DNA of 32,000 nucleotides, taken from positions 1,080,001 to 1,112,000 of the forward strand of contig NZ_CP089976.1 in assembly GCF_022701215.1 (NCBI RefSeq), given 5' to 3'. Positions 416-11,591 of this stretch are shown here, in pieces; the first letter of the stretch is position 1; each line of letters begins with the position of its first letter. Under the pieces are notes generated by a model. It was not told the DNA's origin. It saw only the letters and a program-made list of their open reading frames with translations, and did not search any database. Both the position numbers and the translations under genes were made by a program. This stretch comes from Moraxella nasovis (GTDB taxonomy: Bacteria; Pseudomonadota; Gammaproteobacteria; Pseudomonadales; Moraxellaceae).

Positions 416-1969
416 ATGACTTACAAAGAGCAACGAGACGAATTACACCGCCGTATCTGGCAAATCGCTGACGAAGTGCGTGGGGCGGTGGACGGCTGGG
501 ATTTTAAGCAATATATCTTGGGGGCGTTGTTTTACCGCTTTATTAGTGAGCATTTTAGTGCGTATATTGAAGCGGGTGATGACAGTGTTAATTATGCCCA
601 ATTTGATGACAAAGCCGAAATTTTGGACGCTATTAAAGATGACACCATCAAGACCAAAGGCTATTTTATTTATCCTAGCCAATTATTTGAAAATGTCGCT
701 AAAAACGCCCACACCAATGACAATCTAAACACCGACTTAAAGGCGATTTTTGATGCCATTGAAGCATCAGCCACAGGCTATCCGTCCGAAGACGACATCA
801 AGGGCTTGTTTGCCGATTTTGATACCACCAGTAGCCGATTGGGAAATAACGTCAATGACAAAAATGACCGCCTTGCCAAAGTCCTAAAAGGTGTCGCACA
901 GCTTAATTTTGGGGAATTTAAAGATAATCAGATTGATTTGTTTGGCGATGCTTATGAATTTCTCATCTCAAATTATGCTGCCAATGCGGGCAAATCAGGC
1001 GGTGAGTTTTTCACTCCACAGCACGTCTCAAAGCTCATCGCACAGCTTGCCACACACGGTCAAAAACAAGTCAATAAAATCTATGACCCTGCCTGTGGGT
1101 CAGGCTCGCTACTATTACAAGCCAAAAAGCAGTTTGATGAACACCTGCTACAAGACGGTTTTTTTGGGCAAGAGATTAACCATACGACTTATAACCTAGC
1201 TCGTATGAATATGTTTTTGCACAACATCAATTACGACAAATTTAACATTGCTTTGGGTAATACGCTCATAAATCCTGAATTTGGCGATGATAAGCCTTTT
1301 GATGCCATCGTCTCCAATCCGCCTTATTCGGTCAAGTGGATAGGCGATGACGACCCTACGCTCATCAATGACGACCGTTTTGCCCCAGCAGGCGTGCTTG
1401 CCCCGAAGTCTAAGGCGGATTTTGCTTTTGTGCTACACGCATTGCATTATCTGTCTGCTCGGGGTCGTGCGGCGATTGTGTGTTTTCCTGGCATATTCTA
1501 CCGTGGCGGAGCGGAGCAAAAAATTCGTAAATACTTGATTGATAATAACTACGTAGAGACGGTGATTGCCCTTGCACCCAATTTATTTTTTGGCACGAGC
1601 ATTGCGGTCAATATCTTGGTACTTGCCAAAAACAAGCCTGACACACGCACGCAGTTTATAGATGCCAGTGGTCTATTTAAAAAAGAAACCAATAATAACG
1701 CACTCACCGATGAGCATATCGCCCAAATCTTAGCGACTTTTGGCGACAAAACAGACGTAGCACACTTTGCTAAGATGGTAGATAACACCCAAATCGCTGA
1801 TAATGATTATAATCTGGCGGTAAGTAGTTATGTAGAAGCTCGTGATACCAGAGAAATCATTGATATTGATGTGCTAAATGGGGAAATCCGTGAGACGGTG
1901 GCGGTCATTGATAAGCTACGAGTGCAGATTGATGAGATTGTGGGGGAGATTGTGGGGGAGCGTGCATAA
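416..1969 (+). CDS. hsdM: Type I restriction-modification system DNA methyltransferase subunit HsdM (N6-adenine)
   Basis: 517-aa ORF. SAM-binding motif [11 protein letters not shown] and catalytic NPPY (VSNPPYS). HsdM_N-like N-terminus. SD 6 nt upstream. Context with hsdS and hsdR. Confidence 0.95.
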
Positions 1970-2961
1970 TGGAGCTTGTGCTATATACAACCGATGACGG
2001 TAAGGCTCAATTTGCCTTACAGCAGTTTGATGAACAGCTATGGCTCAATCAAATGCAAATCGCCGAACTCTATCAAACCAGCAAGCAAAATATCAGCAAG
2101 CATATCAATGCAATTTTTGCAGAAGGGGAAATTGACCAAAATTCAACTGTCAACTCTAAGTTGATAGTTCAAACCGAAGGTAAAAGACAAATTAAACGCA
2201 CCGTTAAATACTATTCACTGCCACTCATCATTGCCATAGGCTATCGTGTGCGGTCGGCTCGTGGGACACAGTTTCGCCAGTGGGCAACCGAGCGGTTGCA
2301 TGAATATGTGGTTAAGGGTTTTACCCTAGATGATGAACGCCTAAAAAACTTAAGCGGTGGCAATTATTTCAAGGAGCTTTTAGGGCGTATTCGTGAGATT
2401 CGTTCTAGTGAAAAGGTAATGTATCGGCAAGTGCTTGATTTGTATGCTACGGCGATGGATTACGACCCTAAGAGTGAAACGAGTATTACGTTTTTTAAGA
2501 TTATCCAAAATAAACTACACTTCGCCGCCCACGGACATACCGCCAGCGAAGTGATTTATTTTCGGGTGGATAGCGATAAGCCTTATGCAGGTTTGACTAC
2601 GTTTAAGGGTGCTGAGCCAACCCAAGCTGATGCAATGGTTGCAAAAAACTATCTTAATGAACAAGAATTACGAGTGCTTAATAATTTGGTGTCTGCTTAT
2701 TTTGACTTTGCTGAATTAAATGCCATAGAAGAGCGTCCGATGATGATGGCGGATTATGTGAATGAGCTTGACCGTATTTTACAAAGTACAGGCAGAAAAG
2801 TGCTAGATAATGCAGGCACAATCTCACGCAATCAAGCAATAGAAAAAGCAAAGAGTGAGTATAAAAAATACAAAGCAAAAACGCTGTCAGAAGTAGAAAA
2901 ATCCTACTTACAAACCATTCAAACGCTAAATACACTCGCAAAGCAAAAAGGAAAGGGATGA
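1969..2961 (+). CDS. RhuM-family protein (virulence protein RhuM-like) embedded between hsdM and hsdS
   Basis: 330-aa ORF. The N-terminus [46 protein letters not shown] and the core IAIGYRVRSARGTQFRQWATERL are typical of the RhuM family. Start overlaps the hsdM stop by 1 nt (TAATG). Stop overlaps the hsdS1 start (ATGA). Confidence 0.85.
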   Translation: MELVLYTTDDGKAQFALQQFDEQLWLNQMQIAELYQTSKQNISKHINAIFAEGEIDQNSTVNSKLIVQTEGKRQIKRTVKYYSLPLIIAIGYRVRSARGTQFRQWATERLHEYVVKGFTLDDERLKNLSGGNYFKELLGRIREIRSSEKVMYRQVLDLYATAMDYDPKSETSITFFKIIQNKLHFAAHGHTASEVIYFRVDSDKPYAGLTTFKGAEPTQADAMVAKNYLNEQELRVLNNLVSAYFDFAELNAIEERPMMMADYVNELDRILQSTGRKVLDNAGTISRNQAIEKAKSEYKKYKAKTLSEVEKSYLQTIQTLNTLAKQKGKG

Positions 2962-10366: not shown

Positions 10367-10439
10367 AGTTGTTATGCACTATTGTAGCACAGTAAAATTA
10401 AAATGCAAGTTTTTACAATTTGAATAATAAAGGTGGTGA

Positions 10440-11591
10440 ATGAATATTTTGCAGATGATTGAGCGGTGTGATGTTGAATGGCGAGAGCTTGGCAAGGCTT
10501 TAATTCGCACCAAAGGCACAAAAATTACCGCAGGGCAGATGAAGGAATTGCACAAAGAAGATGCTCCCATCAAAATCTTTGCAGGCGGTAAGACTTTTGC
10601 ATTGGTTGATTATGATGATATCCCACAAAAGGACATCAATCACAAACCATCAATTATTGTCAAATCTCGTGGTATTATTGAATTTGAATATTATGATAAG
10701 CCTTTTTCTCATAAAAATGAAATGTGGGCATATCACTCCCAAGATGAAAATGTTAATTTAAAATTTATTTATTACTTTTTAAAACAAAATGAACCACGCT
10801 TTCAAGCTATCGGTAGCAAAATGCAAATGCCACAAATTGCTACGCCTGATACCGATAAATTTAAAATCCCAATCCCACCCCTACCAATTCAAGAAAAAAT
10901 CGTACAGATTTTGGATCTGTTTACCAGCTTAGAAAAAGAGTTGCGGACAGAGCTTGCATTACGACAAAAGCAATATGCTTATTACCGTGAGCTATTATTA
11001 TCATTTGATAGTAATTCTCAACAATTCCCGACACACACACACACACTGGCGACGGTGGTTTGGAAAACTTTGGGGGAAGTGGTTGATTATATTCAACCTA
11101 GTAAATACTTGGTTCATTCTACGGATTATCATGATAGCTTTAAAATACCTGTTCTAACAGCGGGCAAGACATTTATTTTGGGCTATACCAATGAAACGGA
11201 CGGCATTTACCCAGCTTCTGATAATCCTGTGATTATTTTTGATGATTTTACCACTGCAAATAAATGGGTGAATTTTGATTTTAAAGCCAAATCGTCGGCA
11301 ATGAAAATCATTGTTCAAAAAGATAATCAAGTGTTATTAAGGTATGTGTATCATTGGTTAAATACTTTGCCAGATGAAGAAAGTACAGACCATAAACGCC
11401 AATGGATTAGTAATTTTTCCAAAAAACCAATCCCAATTCCACCCCTATCCACCCAAACCCAAATTGTCGCCATCTTGGATAAATTTGACACGCTGACCAA
11501 CTCTTTAACACACGGCTTACCACGAGAGATAGAATTACGGCGTAAGCAGTATGAATATTATCAAGAAAAGTTGCTTGCCTTTAAGCAATAA
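10440..11591 (+). CDS. hsdS: Type I R-M specificity subunit HsdS (copy 2, distinct TRD1, TRD2 shared with copy 1)
   Basis: 383-aa ORF. Central helix PIPPLPIQEKIVQILD..LRQKQYAYYRELLLSF and distal helix LRRKQYEYYQEKLLAF. SD aaggtgg upstream of the ATG. Confidence 0.9.
   Translation: MNILQMIERCDVEWRELGKALIRTKGTKITAGQMKELHKEDAPIKIFAGGKTFALVDYDDIPQKDINHKPSIIVKSRGIIEFEYYDKPFSHKNEMWAYHSQDENVNLKFIYYFLKQNEPRFQAIGSKMQMPQIATPDTDKFKIPIPPLPIQEKIVQILDLFTSLEKELRTELALRQKQYAYYRELLLSFDSNSQQFPTHTHTLATVVWKTLGEVVDYIQPSKYLVHSTDYHDSFKIPVLTAGKTFILGYTNETDGIYPASDNPVIIFDDFTTANKWVNFDFKAKSSAMKIIVQKDNQVLLRYVYHWLNTLPDEESTDHKRQWISNFSKKPIPIPPLSTQTQIVAILDKFDTLTNSLTHGLPREIELRRKQYEYYQEKLLAFKQ
11031..11046 (+). repeat. (AC)8 dinucleotide repeat inside the hsdS2 coding sequence (encodes THTHT)
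   Basis: Direct reading shows acacacacacacacac at 11031-11046, in frame, 22 nt upstream of the shared TRD2 block. Confidence 0.95.
11069..11488 (+). repeat. Right copy of the 420-bp near-identical direct repeat (TRD2 of hsdS2)
   Basis: See 3542-3961. Same orientation, 7527 bp apart. Confidence 0.9.

What the first reader, a model, noticed from the sequence alone, without database searches (positions are those of the whole stretch)
416..11591. Type I R-M operon used as a scaffold for six interleaved accessory genes with near-continuous translational coupling
The gene order is hsdM | RhuM | hsdS1 | Fic | hsdR | DUF3990 | DUF3791 | DUF3791 | hsdS-remnant leader | Abi_2 | hsdS2, all on one strand. 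Junction distances read from the sequence are -1, -4, +134 (with palindromes), +28, +3, -4, -4, +4, +1 and +156 nt. Single insertions such as PrrC, Abi or Fic are known in hsd loci. Here at least four independent toxin-like functions (RhuM, Fic, the putative ART and Abi_2) are nested in one R-M transcription unit. This suggests layered defence in which failure of restriction is backed up by several suicide effectors. I saw no integrase, transposase or tRNA at either edge, so how the island was assembled is unclear.
Basis: partly seen in the sequence, partly recalled or inferred. Interest (0 to 1): 0.75.

Follow-up and report, generated by a model that had tools for sequence, protein, structure and literature searches.

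The report
Restriction locus packed with defence cassettes
An 11.4-kb chromosomal island of Moraxella nasovis holds an EcoR124-type restriction-modification system with four separate anti-phage modules and a second specificity gene slotted between and behind its genes; it is a well-filled but ordinary example of a layout already described in the literature.

Summary

The backbone is an intact type IC (EcoR124I/EcoprrI-family) hsdM-hsdS-hsdR system. Four modules are embedded in it: RhuM (PADLOC PDC-S05), a class II SoFic-like Fic AMPylase, the three-gene PDC-M13 cassette (DUF3990 plus two small proteins) and AbiD/Abi_2. A second hsdS shares one target-recognition domain with the first (419 of 420 nt identical).

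Comparison with 80 related loci shows three recurrent insertion slots. The hsdS|hsdR slot, filled here by Fic, holds PrrC in 40 of 75 loci. Other loci carry comparable loads, for example four cassettes in L059.

Each module also occurs on its own elsewhere, and Fic and AbiD bring their own conserved flanking elements. The locus is therefore more likely three transcription units than one.

A related genome has the empty site, which bounds the island at about 267-11639. The island has no mobility genes, tRNA or flanking repeats.

Defence genes embedded in type I R-M loci, and the layered-defence idea, are already published (Anantharaman 2013; Payne 2024). This is a new member of a known kind, of modest interest.

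The parts
1..158 (-). Left chromosomal flank: 5' end of an NMT1-family ABC-transporter substrate-binding gene. It is not part of the island.
   Evidence: The N-terminal 52 aa are 60% identical to the NMT1 gene that directly follows the reductase gene in the empty-site contig L094.
267..11639 (+). The inserted island as a whole (about 11.4 kb; G+C 39.8% against 44.5% for the right flank).
   Evidence: Window 16-266 matches L094 4798-4546 and window 11665-13004 matches L094 4516-3177. In L094 the two flanks are only about 105 nt apart.
346..375 (+). Promoter-like site upstream of hsdM (TTGCCT-18-TATAAT).
   Evidence: Consensus scan, 10 of 12 positions. Consensus match only; not shown to be functional.
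416..1969 (+). hsdM, the type I N6-adenine methyltransferase subunit.
   Evidence: Pfam N6_Mtase and HsdM_N. TIGR00497 scores 669 bits against a 243-bit cut-off. NPPY motif present.
1969..2961 (+). RhuM-family gene (PADLOC candidate PDC-S05) in the hsdM|hsdS slot. It overlaps both neighbours (ATGA overlap with hsdM; 4-nt overlap with hsdS1).
   Evidence: The same slot holds RhuM homologues in 11 related loci.
2958..4061 (+). hsdS1, a specificity subunit with two target-recognition domains (TRDs).
   Evidence: Its TRD2 at 3542-3961 is 419/420 nt identical to hsdS2 11069-11488.
4088..4171 (+). Upstream region carried by the Fic cassette. It holds three TTTG-N5-CAAA boxes (4089, 4112, 4159), the 24-nt palindrome 4130-4153 and a TTGTTAATCAAAA...TATGAG promoter-like stretch.
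   Evidence: Three of the four such boxes in the 32-kb window lie here. The fold z-score is -4.7. The same elements lie upstream of Fic homologues in Bibersteinia, Rodentibacter, Psychrobacter, Uruburuella and Nitrosomonas.
4196..5317 (+). Class II SoFic-like Fic AMPylase in the hsdS|hsdR slot, the slot that usually holds PrrC.
   Evidence: matches the SoFic structures 3eqx and 9tc4. Motifs HPFADGNGRIGR and SSRMEG are present.
5346..8435 (+). hsdR, the EcoR124I-family restriction/translocase subunit. It starts 28 nt after Fic, with no hairpin in between.
8439..9357 (+). PDC-M13 three-gene cassette: a DUF3990 ART-clan toxin-like protein (8439-8912), an 83-aa protein (8909-9160) and a DUF3791 protein (9157-9357).
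   Evidence: PADLOC PDC-M13A, B and C all match. The same trio with the same 4-nt overlaps lies between hsdM and hsdS in L002, and outside any R-M locus in a Moraxella osloensis mobile element.
9362..9403 (+). 13-codon remnant of an hsdS 5' end (MNILQMVEGCEVK*). It ends 1 nt before the AbiD start codon and probably serves as a coupling leader.
   Evidence: repeat D7, 84% identical to the hsdS2 start.
9405..10283 (+). AbiD/Abi_2 HEPN-family abortive-infection gene.
   Evidence: The Rx4H motif RNVSAHH is present. Homologues lie inside other type I loci.
10321..10366 (+). Hairpin just downstream of AbiD; a likely transcription stop that belongs to the Abi cassette.
   Evidence: Fold. A hairpin of the same shape and flanks follows the Abi gene of M. 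osloensis pYHS2. The terminator function is inferred.
10369..10398 (+). Promoter-like site upstream of hsdS2 (TTGTTA-18-TAAAAT).
   Evidence: Consensus match only.
10440..11591 (+). hsdS2, a second complete specificity subunit. Its TRD1 differs from that of hsdS1 and its TRD2 is the same.
11588..11614 (.). Hairpin between the convergent hsdS2 and reductase genes; a possible bidirectional terminator.
   Evidence: -13.1 kcal/mol, z-score -1.8; weak.
11640..13091 (-). Right chromosomal flank: a rubredoxin-reductase fusion gene. It is not part of the island.
   Evidence: It is 100% identical to a Moraxella nasovis protein and syntenic with L094.

Best explanation
This is an 11.4-kb chromosomal defence island of Moraxella nasovis. 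It was inserted between an NMT1-type transporter gene and a rubredoxin-reductase gene.

Backbone. The core is an intact type IC (EcoR124I/EcoprrI-family) restriction-modification system. By established knowledge of type I enzymes, HsdM2-HsdS methylates host DNA and HsdR2-M2-S cuts unmodified DNA after translocation. Two complete HsdS subunits share TRD2 and differ in TRD1. The prediction (inferred) is two recognition sequences with a common half-site.

Slots. The three positions where this R-M family habitually accepts foreign genes are all occupied by autonomous anti-phage modules:
- hsdM|hsdS slot: RhuM/PDC-S05.
- hsdS|hsdR slot: a class II SoFic-like Fic AMPylase, where most relatives carry the PrrC anticodon nuclease.
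- Behind hsdR: the PDC-M13 cassette (ART-clan DUF3990 toxin-like protein plus two small partners) and the HEPN protein AbiD. AbiD is translated behind a captured 13-codon hsdS leader.

Assembly. The modules were gained and exchanged cassette by cassette. The nearest related locus, in M. oculi, has PrrC instead of Fic and has hsdS2 directly coupled to hsdR. No mobility genes are involved. The most likely route is recombination in the conserved hsd genes (inferred).

Expression. The locus is probably expressed as three units: hsdM-RhuM-hsdS1; Fic-hsdR-PDC-M13-leader-AbiD, from the Fic cassette's own promoter and operator region; and hsdS2.

Function. Restriction is the first line of defence. The embedded modules are independent abortive-infection or toxin effectors, each with its own trigger. 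They are linked to the R-M genes mainly because linkage gives co-inheritance and co-transfer. A dedicated sensing wire to the restriction enzyme is not needed to explain the layout.
For: Anatomy and intact motifs.

Type IC membership: HsdR aligns full-length to EcoR124I HsdR at 1611 bits.

Source organism: Fic and the reductase are 100% identical to M. nasovis proteins on a 2.03-Mb contig.

Empty site and island limits.

Slot usage in 80 related loci:
- PrrC sits in the S|R slot in 40 of 75 loci.
- RhuM is found 11 times in M|S, 11 times in S|R and 3 times behind hsdR.
- PDC-S01, S02, S04, S13 and S33, PDDEXK_3 and Schlafen-AlbA_2 also occur.
- Genes directly behind hsdR include SoFic-like (4), RhuM (2), QatA, GmrSD, AbiH, patatin and SIR2.

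E. coli loci of the same family are bare.

Autonomy of the modules:
- Fic homologues at 67-75% identity stand alone in Psychrobacter, Uruburuella and Muriicola, and lie in an integrase island in Nitrosomonas. They sit in the M|S slot of a different type I family in Bibersteinia and Rodentibacter.
- Plasmid Fic homologues stand alone.
- The PDC-M13 trio stands alone in an M. osloensis mobile element and lies in the M|S slot in L002.
- AbiD homologues lie inside other type I loci.

Elements carried by the cassettes.

M. oculi comparison.

Literature:
- PrrC-EcoprrI (PMC3874165).
- R-M + PrrC + DOC/RhuM as multi-level defence, and Abi2 embedded in R-M operons (PMC3710099).
- Guilt-by-embedding, and the PDC models built from genes embedded in type I R-M (bioRxiv 10.1101/2024.01.29.577857).
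- SoFic toxicity and abortive infection (PMC12249575).
- PDC-S05 protected E. coli against T7, T5 and T4 (bioRxiv 10.1101/2024.09.26.614923).
Against: - Nothing here is experimental. Transcription units, terminators, operator function and the two predicted specificities are all inferred from sequence.
- I found no paper in which PDC-M13 was tested for defence.
- The window's Fic falls below NCBIfam's SoFic equivalog cut-off (156 against 550 bits), so it is SoFic-like rather than SoFic.
- The two closest Fic homologues (74-75% identity) are themselves embedded in type I loci. That leaves room for a real functional tie between this Fic lineage and type I enzymes.
- The recombination mechanism that moves cassettes with ORF-precise borders was not identified.
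- Only one representative of the PrrC cluster was scored with the PADLOC model; the other 39 were assigned by BLAST clustering.
Confidence: 0.75

Rival explanations
1. Guard model (PrrC-like wiring). One or more embedded effectors, above all Fic in the PrrC slot, are physically held inactive by the HsdMSR complex. They are released when a phage anti-restriction protein (Ocr, Stp or ArdA type) disables it. The locus would then be one integrated two-stage machine.
For: - The backbone belongs to the EcoprrI/EcoR124I family, and Fic occupies exactly the slot that holds PrrC in 40 of 75 relatives.
- hsdR follows Fic by 28 nt with no hairpin, so the two are probably co-transcribed.
- The two nearest Fic homologues are also inside type I loci.
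- PrrC is sequestered by EcoprrI and released by T4 Stp (PMC3874165; PMC3710099).
Against: - Fic homologues of 67-70% identity stand alone among housekeeping genes or in an integrase island. They keep the same upstream control region.
- In Pasteurellaceae the homologue sits in a different slot of a different type I family, so there is no conserved partner interface.
- SoFic and PDC-S05 are reported to work as single genes in a heterologous host (PMC12249575; bioRxiv 10.1101/2024.09.26.614923).
- The PDC-M13 trio is found with no R-M genes nearby.
Confidence: 0.12
2. Selfish-addiction model. The embedded genes are toxin-antitoxin-like stabilisers that merely hitch-hike in, and enforce retention of, a mobile R-M locus. 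They contribute nothing to phage resistance in this host.
For: - DUF3990 with two small partners looks like a toxin-antitoxin set.
- SoFic is toxic and can have a small antitoxin (PMC12249575).
- Payne et al. note that embedding may give a selfish benefit through linked transfer.
- A 420-nt direct repeat could delete Fic, hsdR, PDC-M13 and AbiD in one step, a loss that addiction modules would penalise.
Against: - All four families were defined or validated as defence or defence-candidate systems.
- AbiD, SoFic and PDC-S05 have reported anti-phage phenotypes.
- The slots in related loci are filled almost only with defence-type genes.
- Addiction and defence are not mutually exclusive.
Confidence: 0.1
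3. Phase-variable specificity system. The two hsdS genes and the hsdS 5' remnant are parts of a recombination shufflon that switches methylation specificity, and the accessory genes are incidental.
For: - There are two hsdS genes plus a remnant.
- TRD2 is 419/420 nt identical between the two copies, which implies recent recombination or gene conversion.
Against: - Both hsdS genes and the remnant lie in direct orientation, so recombination would delete rather than invert.
- No recombinase gene lies in or next to the island.
- No inverted hsdS repeats were found.
- Both genes are complete and have their own start signals.
Confidence: 0.03

Closest known systems
EcoprrI-PrrC locus of E. coli (prrA-prrB-prrC-prrD; type IC R-M with an embedded anticodon nuclease)
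   Same: It is the same R-M family (HsdR full-length match to EcoR124I) with the same gene order hsdM-hsdS-X-hsdR. A latent toxin gene occupies the hsdS|hsdR slot. In my sample PrrC itself fills that slot in 40 of 75 related loci, including the nearest one, from M. oculi.
   Different: X is a SoFic-like Fic AMPylase, not an ABC-ATPase/HEPN anticodon nuclease. Three further modules and a second hsdS are present. No evidence shows that Fic is sequestered by the R-M complex, and its homologues also live alone.
Defence systems genetically embedded in type I R-M, BREX and DISARM loci (Payne, Hughes, Fineran, Jackson; bioRxiv 10.1101/2024.01.29.577857; PADLOC PDC models)
   Same: The locus meets their working definition: all system genes are on one strand, none is a pseudogene, and foreign genes are nested between system genes. 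Two of the four modules (PDC-S05, PDC-M13) match models that were built from exactly such embedded genes.
   Different: This locus has a high load: four modules (six genes) if the second hsdS is counted as a system gene. Between hsdM and hsdR it has only two, which is common (17 of 65 loci).
Multi-level R-M + HEPN + DOC/RhuM loci (Anantharaman, Makarova, Burroughs, Koonin, Aravind 2013; PMC3710099)
   Same: It combines a type I R-M system with RhuM, a Fic/DOC-superfamily protein and a HEPN protein (Abi2 family) in one gene neighbourhood. The layered-defence interpretation is the one those authors proposed.
   Different: The HEPN component is AbiD behind hsdR rather than PrrC. The Fic protein is a long class II SoFic type rather than a small DOC. 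An ART-clan cassette is added.
SoFic single-gene defence (Shewanella oneidensis SO4266; PDB 3eqx and 9tc4; EcSofic in PMC12249575)
   Same: It has the same Fic_N + Fic + C-terminal domain architecture, the catalytic HxFx(D/E)GNGRxxR motif and the N-terminal inhibitory (S/T)xxxE(G/N) motif. It gives a full-length PADLOC SoFic match.
   Different: The alignment to the SoFic chains is full-length but weak (about 112 bits). It is below the NCBIfam equivalog cut-off. There is no small AS1-like ORF downstream, because hsdR starts 28 nt after the stop codon.
Lactococcal AbiD/AbiD1/AbiF (Pfam Abi_2) abortive-infection proteins
   Same: It matches the Pfam Abi_2 domain and the PADLOC AbiD model and has the HEPN Rx4-6H motif.
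   Different: It is chromosomal, placed behind hsdR, and translated behind a captured hsdS leader peptide. It is followed by a hairpin shared with the Abi gene of M. osloensis plasmid pYHS2.
Type I systems with several hsdS genes (phase-variable shufflons such as SpnD39III or Mycoplasma hsd; from my own knowledge)
   Same: There is more than one hsdS per hsdM/hsdR, and one TRD is shared between the copies.
   Different: The copies are in direct orientation and both are complete. There is no recombinase and there are no inverted repeats. The expected outcome is two co-existing specificities, not switching.

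Membership tests
Type IC restriction-modification (EcoR124I/EcoprrI family) | Intact hsdM, hsdS and hsdR genes with catalytic motifs | tested here: met
   Pfam and NCBIfam hits are above their cut-offs. NPPY, GSGKT and DECH are present.
Type IC restriction-modification (EcoR124I/EcoprrI family) | HsdR closely related over its full length to EcoR124I HsdR, including the EcoR124_C domain | tested here: met
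   1611 bits, query residues 2-1025 against 5-1036 of PDB 2w00. PF12008 scores 210 bits.
Type IC restriction-modification (EcoR124I/EcoprrI family) | Gene order hsdM-hsdS-hsdR | tested here: met
   The same order is seen in 65 complete related loci.
Type IC restriction-modification (EcoR124I/EcoprrI family) | Subunit complementation with known type IC enzymes; restriction and methylation activity | not testable with these tools
   Needs genetics, or a SMRT or nanopore methylome.
PrrC-type guard embedded in a type IC system | ABC-ATPase + HEPN anticodon nuclease between hsdS and hsdR | tested here: not met
   The slot holds a Fic protein, and no window protein matches PADLOC PrrC. The M. oculi relative does have PrrC (2e-132).
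PrrC-type guard embedded in a type IC system | Effector kept latent by binding the R-M complex and released by anti-restriction proteins | not testable with these tools
   Only indirect evidence is available, and it argues against: homologues exist without R-M neighbours.
Embedded defence systems (guilt-by-embedding definition, bioRxiv 10.1101/2024.01.29.577857) | All system genes on one strand, no pseudogenes, and foreign genes nested between system genes | tested here: met
   Definition read.
SoFic (class II Fic AMPylase defence) | Fic_N + Fic domains with HxFx(D/E)GNGRxxR and the inhibitory (S/T)xxxE(G/N) motif | tested here: met
SoFic (class II Fic AMPylase defence) | Orthology to S. oneidensis SoFic (NCBIfam equivalog NF046030, cut-off 550 bits) | tested here: not met
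   155.7 bits. The PADLOC SoFic model does match at 342 bits. It is therefore SoFic-like, not a SoFic orthologue.
SoFic (class II Fic AMPylase defence) | C-terminal winged-helix-like domain | tested here: inconclusive
   SoFic-like_C gives E=0.012, below its cut-off. The alignment to the SoFic chains runs to residue 357 of 373.
AbiD / Abi_2 (HEPN) | Abi_2 domain and the Rx4-6H motif | tested here: met
   189 bits. AbiD model at 9.5e-68. RNVSAHH present.
PDC-M13 (PADLOC multi-gene candidate) | Three adjacent genes matching components A, B and C | tested here: met
   3.9e-60, 8.1e-34 and 2.8e-30. The same trio and the same overlaps are seen in L002 and in M. osloensis.
PDC-M13 (PADLOC multi-gene candidate) | Anti-phage activity | not tested
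   I found no experimental report.
ADP-ribosyltransferase fold (for DUF3990) | ART fold and an H-Y-[EDQ]-type catalytic triad | tested here: inconclusive
   The model is confident (pLDDT 86.9), but Foldseek against the PDB gave no hit at E<=0.001. The weak hits include three ART-fold proteins: RES toxin 9r35 (E 0.035, TM 0.43-0.46), Arr-2 and ExoA. Invariant residues H6-G7, Y31 and Q137 fit an H-Y-Q pattern. Pfam places DUF3990 in the ART clan (PMC7955679).
PDC-S05 / RhuM | Virulence_RhuM domain and a full-length PDC-S05 profile match | tested here: met
   351 bits and 484 bits.
Phase-variable multi-hsdS shufflon | Inverted hsdS copies plus a site-specific recombinase | tested here: not met
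   All hsdS sequences are direct repeats. There is no recombinase.
Integrative mobile element / genomic island with att sites | Integrase or transposase, a tRNA target, and flanking direct repeats | tested here: not met
   No tRNA. No such genes in the island or the visible flanks. No flanking repeats; the best local alignment between the two edges is 9 nt.

The most novel reading that the evidence does not exclude
In this lineage the SoFic-like cassette has functionally replaced PrrC as the guard of a type IC enzyme.
- Its conserved operator/promoter region (the TTTG-N5-CAAA boxes), presumably bound by the protein's own C-terminal HTH-like domain, now drives hsdR. Expression of the restriction subunit and of the AMPylase toxin would then be co-regulated.
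- The AMPylase would be unleashed when a phage anti-restriction protein disables the HsdMSR complex.
- A weaker version: only the autoregulated Fic operator that travels with the gene across genera is real. As far as my searches went, it is undescribed.
Probability: 0.12. Interest if true: 0.6.

Novelty: new member of a known kind. Interest (0 to 1): 0.3.

Why it matters
The locus is a compact natural test bed. It holds one validated first-line system plus four accessory modules on 11.4 kb in a small-genome animal commensal. Of the accessory modules, AbiD, SoFic-like and PDC-S05 have some experimental backing, and PDC-M13 has none.

It could be used to ask three questions:
- whether embedded modules act independently of the surrounding R-M enzyme or are wired to it;
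- whether PDC-M13 is a real defence system;
- whether two HsdS subunits that share a TRD give two motifs with a common half-site.

The comparative result has some general use for annotating defence islands. It shows three fixed slots in EcoR124-type loci, PrrC as the default occupant of one slot, and cassettes that carry their own control elements.

None of this changes current concepts.

Tried and rejected
Searches that found nothing or could not run:
- Exact-sequence look-ups of the window's HsdR, Hsp33 and Fic (as P0001) and of the M. caviae reductase found nothing on record. The source genome itself could therefore not be read beyond the window. The organism was identified from cluster names instead.
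- Megablast against plasmids found only backbone similarity and no copy of the island.
- Foldseek against the PDB gave no significant match for DUF3990, and a sequence search of the PDB gave nothing either.

Ideas tested and rejected:
- Mobile-element borders. No direct repeats flank the island, there is no tRNA and there are no mobility genes.
- Rfam families in the long gaps: none.
- Classical intrinsic terminators at the two long gaps. The scan listed none there. The 134-nt gap hairpins lack a U-run and coincide with conserved operator-like boxes, so I read them as protein-binding sites rather than terminators.
- That the M. oculi locus is the same island in a sister species. It lies elsewhere in that genome, with no flank similarity, and homology starts exactly at the hsdM start codon.
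- That AbiD and hsdS2 were acquired together from a pYHS2-like locus. The two HsdS proteins are only about 26% identical over short stretches, and only the Abi gene and its 3' hairpin are shared.
- That the two small PDC-M13 proteins are clear paralogues. Direct BLASTP is marginal (E=0.005 over 10 residues).

Full report
OBSERVATION

The window has ten same-strand ORFs plus a 13-codon ORF between 416 and 11591.

There is one nuance. The 83-aa ORF at 8909-9160 has no Pfam hit at E<=0.01. It matches PADLOC PDC-M13B (8e-34) and only weakly the DUF3791-type PDC-M13C profile (2.4e-07).

The short ORF at 9362-9403 (MNILQMVEGCEVK*) is a true remnant of an hsdS 5' end. It is 84% identical over 37 nt to the start of hsdS2 (D7). 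It stops 1 nt before the AbiD start codon.

All catalytic motifs I checked are intact. The window contains no tRNA and no Rfam family.

WHAT THE BACKBONE IS

HsdR aligns over its whole length with EcoR124I HsdR (PDB 2w00, 1611 bits) and carries the EcoR124_C domain. The system therefore belongs to the type IC family, which also contains EcoprrI, the classical host of the embedded anticodon nuclease PrrC (PMC3874165).

Source and flanks:
- The source organism is Moraxella nasovis. The Fic protein and the flanking reductase are 100% identical to M. nasovis proteins on a 2.03-Mb contig.
- The flanking genes are housekeeping genes.

WHAT THE ACCESSORY GENES ARE

PADLOC assigns the accessory genes to four modules:
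- RhuM to PDC-S05 (484 bits).
- The Fic protein to SoFic (342 bits).
- The trio at 8439-9357 to PDC-M13 components A, B and C.
- The Abi_2 protein to AbiD.

The Fic protein:
- It has the catalytic HPFADGNGRIGR motif and the class II inhibitory SSRMEG motif.
- It aligns with the SoFic crystal structures.
- It falls below NCBIfam's SoFic equivalog cut-off (156 against 550 bits), so I call it SoFic-like.

AbiD has the HEPN motif RNVSAHH. The Abi2 family was recognised as HEPN in PMC3710099.

DUF3990:
- It is listed in the Pfam ART clan (PMC7955679) and occurs as an Rhs toxin tip (PMC4524185).
- My structure model is confident (pLDDT 86.9), but Foldseek found no significant PDB match.
- Three of the best weak hits are ART-fold proteins: RES toxin, Arr-2 and ExoA.

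COMPARATIVE EVIDENCE

I fetched 80 loci from different species whose HsdR is 70-78% identical to the window's. I mapped the window's proteins and all inter-hsd ORFs onto them.

The family has three recurrent insertion positions.

1. The hsdS|hsdR interval.
- It is occupied in most loci. One protein family accounts for 40 of the 75 loci where the interval is visible.
- The representative of that family matches PADLOC PrrC at 2e-132.
- The remainder are RhuM (11), PDDEXK_3, YhcG/PDC-S02, Schlafen-AlbA_2, RelA_SpoT, Bro-N/PDC-S13, AAA_14-DUF4143/PDC-S01 and others.

2. The hsdM|hsdS interval.
- It holds RhuM (11), small Fic/PDC-S04 (7), YhcG (4) and RelA_SpoT/PDC-S33 (2).
- In L002 it holds the same DUF3990 trio as the window, at 62-81% identity.

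3. The position directly behind hsdR. In 27 loci it holds SoFic-like proteins (4), RhuM (2), QatA, GmrSD, AbiH, patatin, SIR2, Schlafen and one second hsdS.

E. coli members of the family that I sampled are bare, with hsdM-hsdS-about 120 nt-hsdR.

Between hsdM and hsdR, the number of embedded ORFs in 65 complete loci is distributed as follows:
- 0 ORFs: 7 loci
- 1 ORF: 34 loci
- 2 ORFs: 17 loci
- 3 ORFs: 4 loci
- 4, 5 and 6 ORFs: 1 locus each

The window has two there, which is ordinary. Its extra load lies behind hsdR. L059 has four different cassettes between hsdM and hsdR, and L010 has six ORFs. The window is in the upper tail but is not unique.

THE NEAREST RELATIVE AND THE ORDER OF EVENTS

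The closest locus is from M. oculi (L001; HsdM 81%, HsdR 78%). Its order is hsdM-RhuM-hsdS-PrrC-hsdR-hsdS2, with hsdR and hsdS2 joined by an ATGA overlap. It lies elsewhere in that genome, and homology with the window begins exactly at the hsdM start codon.

Relative to it, the M. nasovis locus differs in three ways:
- It has Fic where M. oculi has PrrC.
- It has PDC-M13 inserted 3 nt after hsdR.
- It has AbiD inserted after the 13th codon of an hsdS reading frame, whose start was duplicated.

The borders of all these changes fall at or within a few nucleotides of start and stop codons.

The two complete hsdS genes differ in TRD1 (about 50% nt identity). They are 419/420 nt identical across TRD2 and the adjoining conserved region (3542-3961 = 11069-11488). 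This points to recent gene conversion and predicts two recognition sequences that share a half-site. Because the repeats are direct, recombination between them would delete Fic, hsdR, PDC-M13 and AbiD rather than invert anything. No recombinase is present. I therefore reject a phase-variable shufflon.

ISLAND LIMITS

A contig from a related Moraxella-like genome (L094; reductase 73% identical) has the reductase gene followed after 105 nt by an NMT1-family binding-protein gene. The N-terminus of that gene matches the truncated ORF at the left edge of the window (60% identity over 48 aa).

DNA homology runs from window 16-266 and resumes at 11665. The island is therefore about 267-11639. It is essentially the hsd locus with its own promoter region and nothing else.

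Features of the island:
- G+C is 39.8% against 44.5% for the right flank.
- The edges share no repeat longer than 9 nt.
- There are no mobility genes or tRNA.
- How it arrived is not shown. Homologous replacement after natural transformation is my inference.

ARE THE MODULES AUTONOMOUS OR WIRED TO THE ENZYME?

Fic homologues of 67-75% identity occur in three kinds of context:
- Embedded in a different type I family, in the hsdM|hsdS slot, in Bibersteinia and Rodentibacter.
- Inside an integrase-bearing element in Nitrosomonas.
- Alone among housekeeping genes in Psychrobacter, Uruburuella and Muriicola. The more distant plasmid copies are also alone.

The PDC-M13 trio occurs with identical internal overlaps in an M. 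osloensis mobile element that has no R-M genes. The nearest plasmid AbiD homologues sit in two other type I loci, in different slots.

Published work reports single-gene toxicity or abortive infection for SoFic (PMC12249575). It also reports single-gene protection against T7, T5 and T4 by a PDC-S05 representative (bioRxiv 10.1101/2024.09.26.614923).

All this favours independent modules whose linkage to R-M genes is genetic (co-transfer and co-expression) rather than mechanistic. It does not exclude a PrrC-like guard relation for Fic. The slot and the R-M contexts of its two closest relatives keep that idea alive at low probability.

THE TWO LONG GAPS

The 134-nt gap before Fic folds unusually well (z-score -4.7). 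It contains:
- Three TTTG-N5-CAAA boxes. Three of the four such boxes in 32 kb lie here.
- A 24-nt perfect palindrome at 4130-4153.
- A TTGTTAATCAAAA...TATGAG stretch just before the start codon.

The same elements, in the same order, lie upstream of the Fic homologues of Bibersteinia, Rodentibacter, Psychrobacter and Uruburuella, and partly Nitrosomonas. They are present whether the gene is embedded or solitary. In six loci totalling about 118 kb, 14 of 19 boxes lie within 220 nt upstream of Fic.

This gap is therefore the Fic cassette's own control region. A promoter with an operator is my inference. The C-terminal segment of the protein looks HTH-like, but its Pfam hit is sub-threshold. hsdR follows Fic by 28 nt with a Shine-Dalgarno sequence and no hairpin, so it is probably transcribed from this region.

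The 156-nt gap after AbiD begins with a long hairpin (10321-10366). Its shape and flanks recur after the Abi gene of M. osloensis pYHS2, with different stem interiors. It also holds a promoter-like site before hsdS2.

I therefore expect three transcription units rather than one:
- hsdM-RhuM-hsdS1;
- Fic-hsdR-PDC-M13-leader-AbiD;
- hsdS2.

This is inference from sequence and needs transcript mapping.

COMPARISON WITH WHAT IS KNOWN

The general phenomenon is published:
- Anantharaman et al. (PMC3710099) described type I R-M neighbourhoods that combine PrrC, DOC/Fic and RhuM. They proposed a multi-level defence acting on DNA, RNA and protein, and noted Abi2 genes embedded in R-M operons.
- Payne et al. 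(bioRxiv 10.1101/2024.01.29.577857) made embedding in Hma, BREX, DISARM and type I R-M loci a discovery principle. They derived the PDC models from it and discussed both selfish linkage and PrrC-like back-up as reasons.

Two of the window's four modules match those very models. The locus is thus a new, heavily loaded member of a known kind.

The points I could not find described are small:
- the conserved control region that travels with this Fic lineage;
- the hairpin that travels with Abi_2;
- the captured hsdS leader in front of AbiD;
- the paired hsdS genes with one shared TRD.

VERDICT

The 'scaffold' picture is right and already known. The single-operon and back-up-on-failure claims are unproven, and the evidence above argues in part against them. 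Interest is modest (0.3).

Noticed in passing
window 23382-32000 (- strand): A trimeric autotransporter adhesin gene (seven YadA_stalk stretches and a YadA_anchor) of at least 2720 aa. It is built from at least seven near-identical 1071-bp repeats and runs off the right end of the window. It explains the constant AT skew of -0.25 over the last 8 kb.
   Followed up: partly
window 3542-3961 and 11069-11488: 420-nt direct repeats with one mismatch: TRD2 and the distal conserved region of hsdS1 and hsdS2. This implies recent gene conversion. RecA-mediated recombination between them would delete Fic, hsdR, PDC-M13 and AbiD and leave a methylase-only locus.
   Followed up: yes
window 4088-4195; L085 7824-8000; L106 7824-8000; L087 7905-8000; L089 7795-8000: A conserved control region travels with this Fic lineage across genera. 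It has TTTG-N5-CAAA boxes (three per region in Moraxella, Uruburuella and Rodentibacter, where the Rodentibacter boxes are 70 nt apart), an ATGAGCGACAA-type palindrome and a TTGTKAATCAAAA promoter-like stretch. It may be an autoregulatory operator.
   Followed up: partly
window 10321-10366; L095 5817-5857: A long hairpin (CCCC(C)AA...TTGGGG(G)AGTT) directly after the Abi_2 stop codon is shared by M. nasovis and M. osloensis pYHS2. The stem interiors differ, so the structure rather than the sequence seems to be conserved.
   Followed up: partly
window 9432-9444: The only TTTG-N5-CAAA box outside the Fic upstream region lies in the first 40 nt of AbiD. This is probably chance (2.5 boxes expected per 32 kb).
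   Followed up: no
L001 13120-14333 (Moraxella oculi): The second hsdS behind hsdR is split into two ORFs of 231 and 184 aa. It may carry a frameshift, or it may encode two half-size S subunits.
   Followed up: no
window 13027-15574 compared with L094: An SBP_bac_3-type ABC transporter operon lies between the reductase and the acyl-CoA-dehydrogenase-like gene in M. nasovis but is absent from the related contig L094. This is a second difference in gene content next to the island.
   Followed up: no
model m9a8ea9743dac (window 8439-8912): The best, still non-significant, structural match of the DUF3990 model is a protein of the cyanophage A4 pre-ejectosome (9k3a_B, E 4e-3, probability 0.90). It ranks ahead of the RES toxin and Arr-2.
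   Followed up: no
L097-L102 (Moraxella osloensis and skin metagenomes): The DUF3990 trio sits after an HTH_26 gene. It lies next to two tyrosine-recombinase genes followed by a large unknown gene, and is flanked by IS elements. This looks like a small mobile element that is common in skin metagenomes; the index lists the protein in 99 blocks of the collection.
   Followed up: no
L089 7748-7795 (Uruburuella testudinis): An inverted pair of the neisserial DNA uptake sequence GCCGTCTGAA lies upstream of the solitary Fic gene. This is expected for Neisseriaceae, but it fits spread of the cassette by transformation.
   Followed up: no
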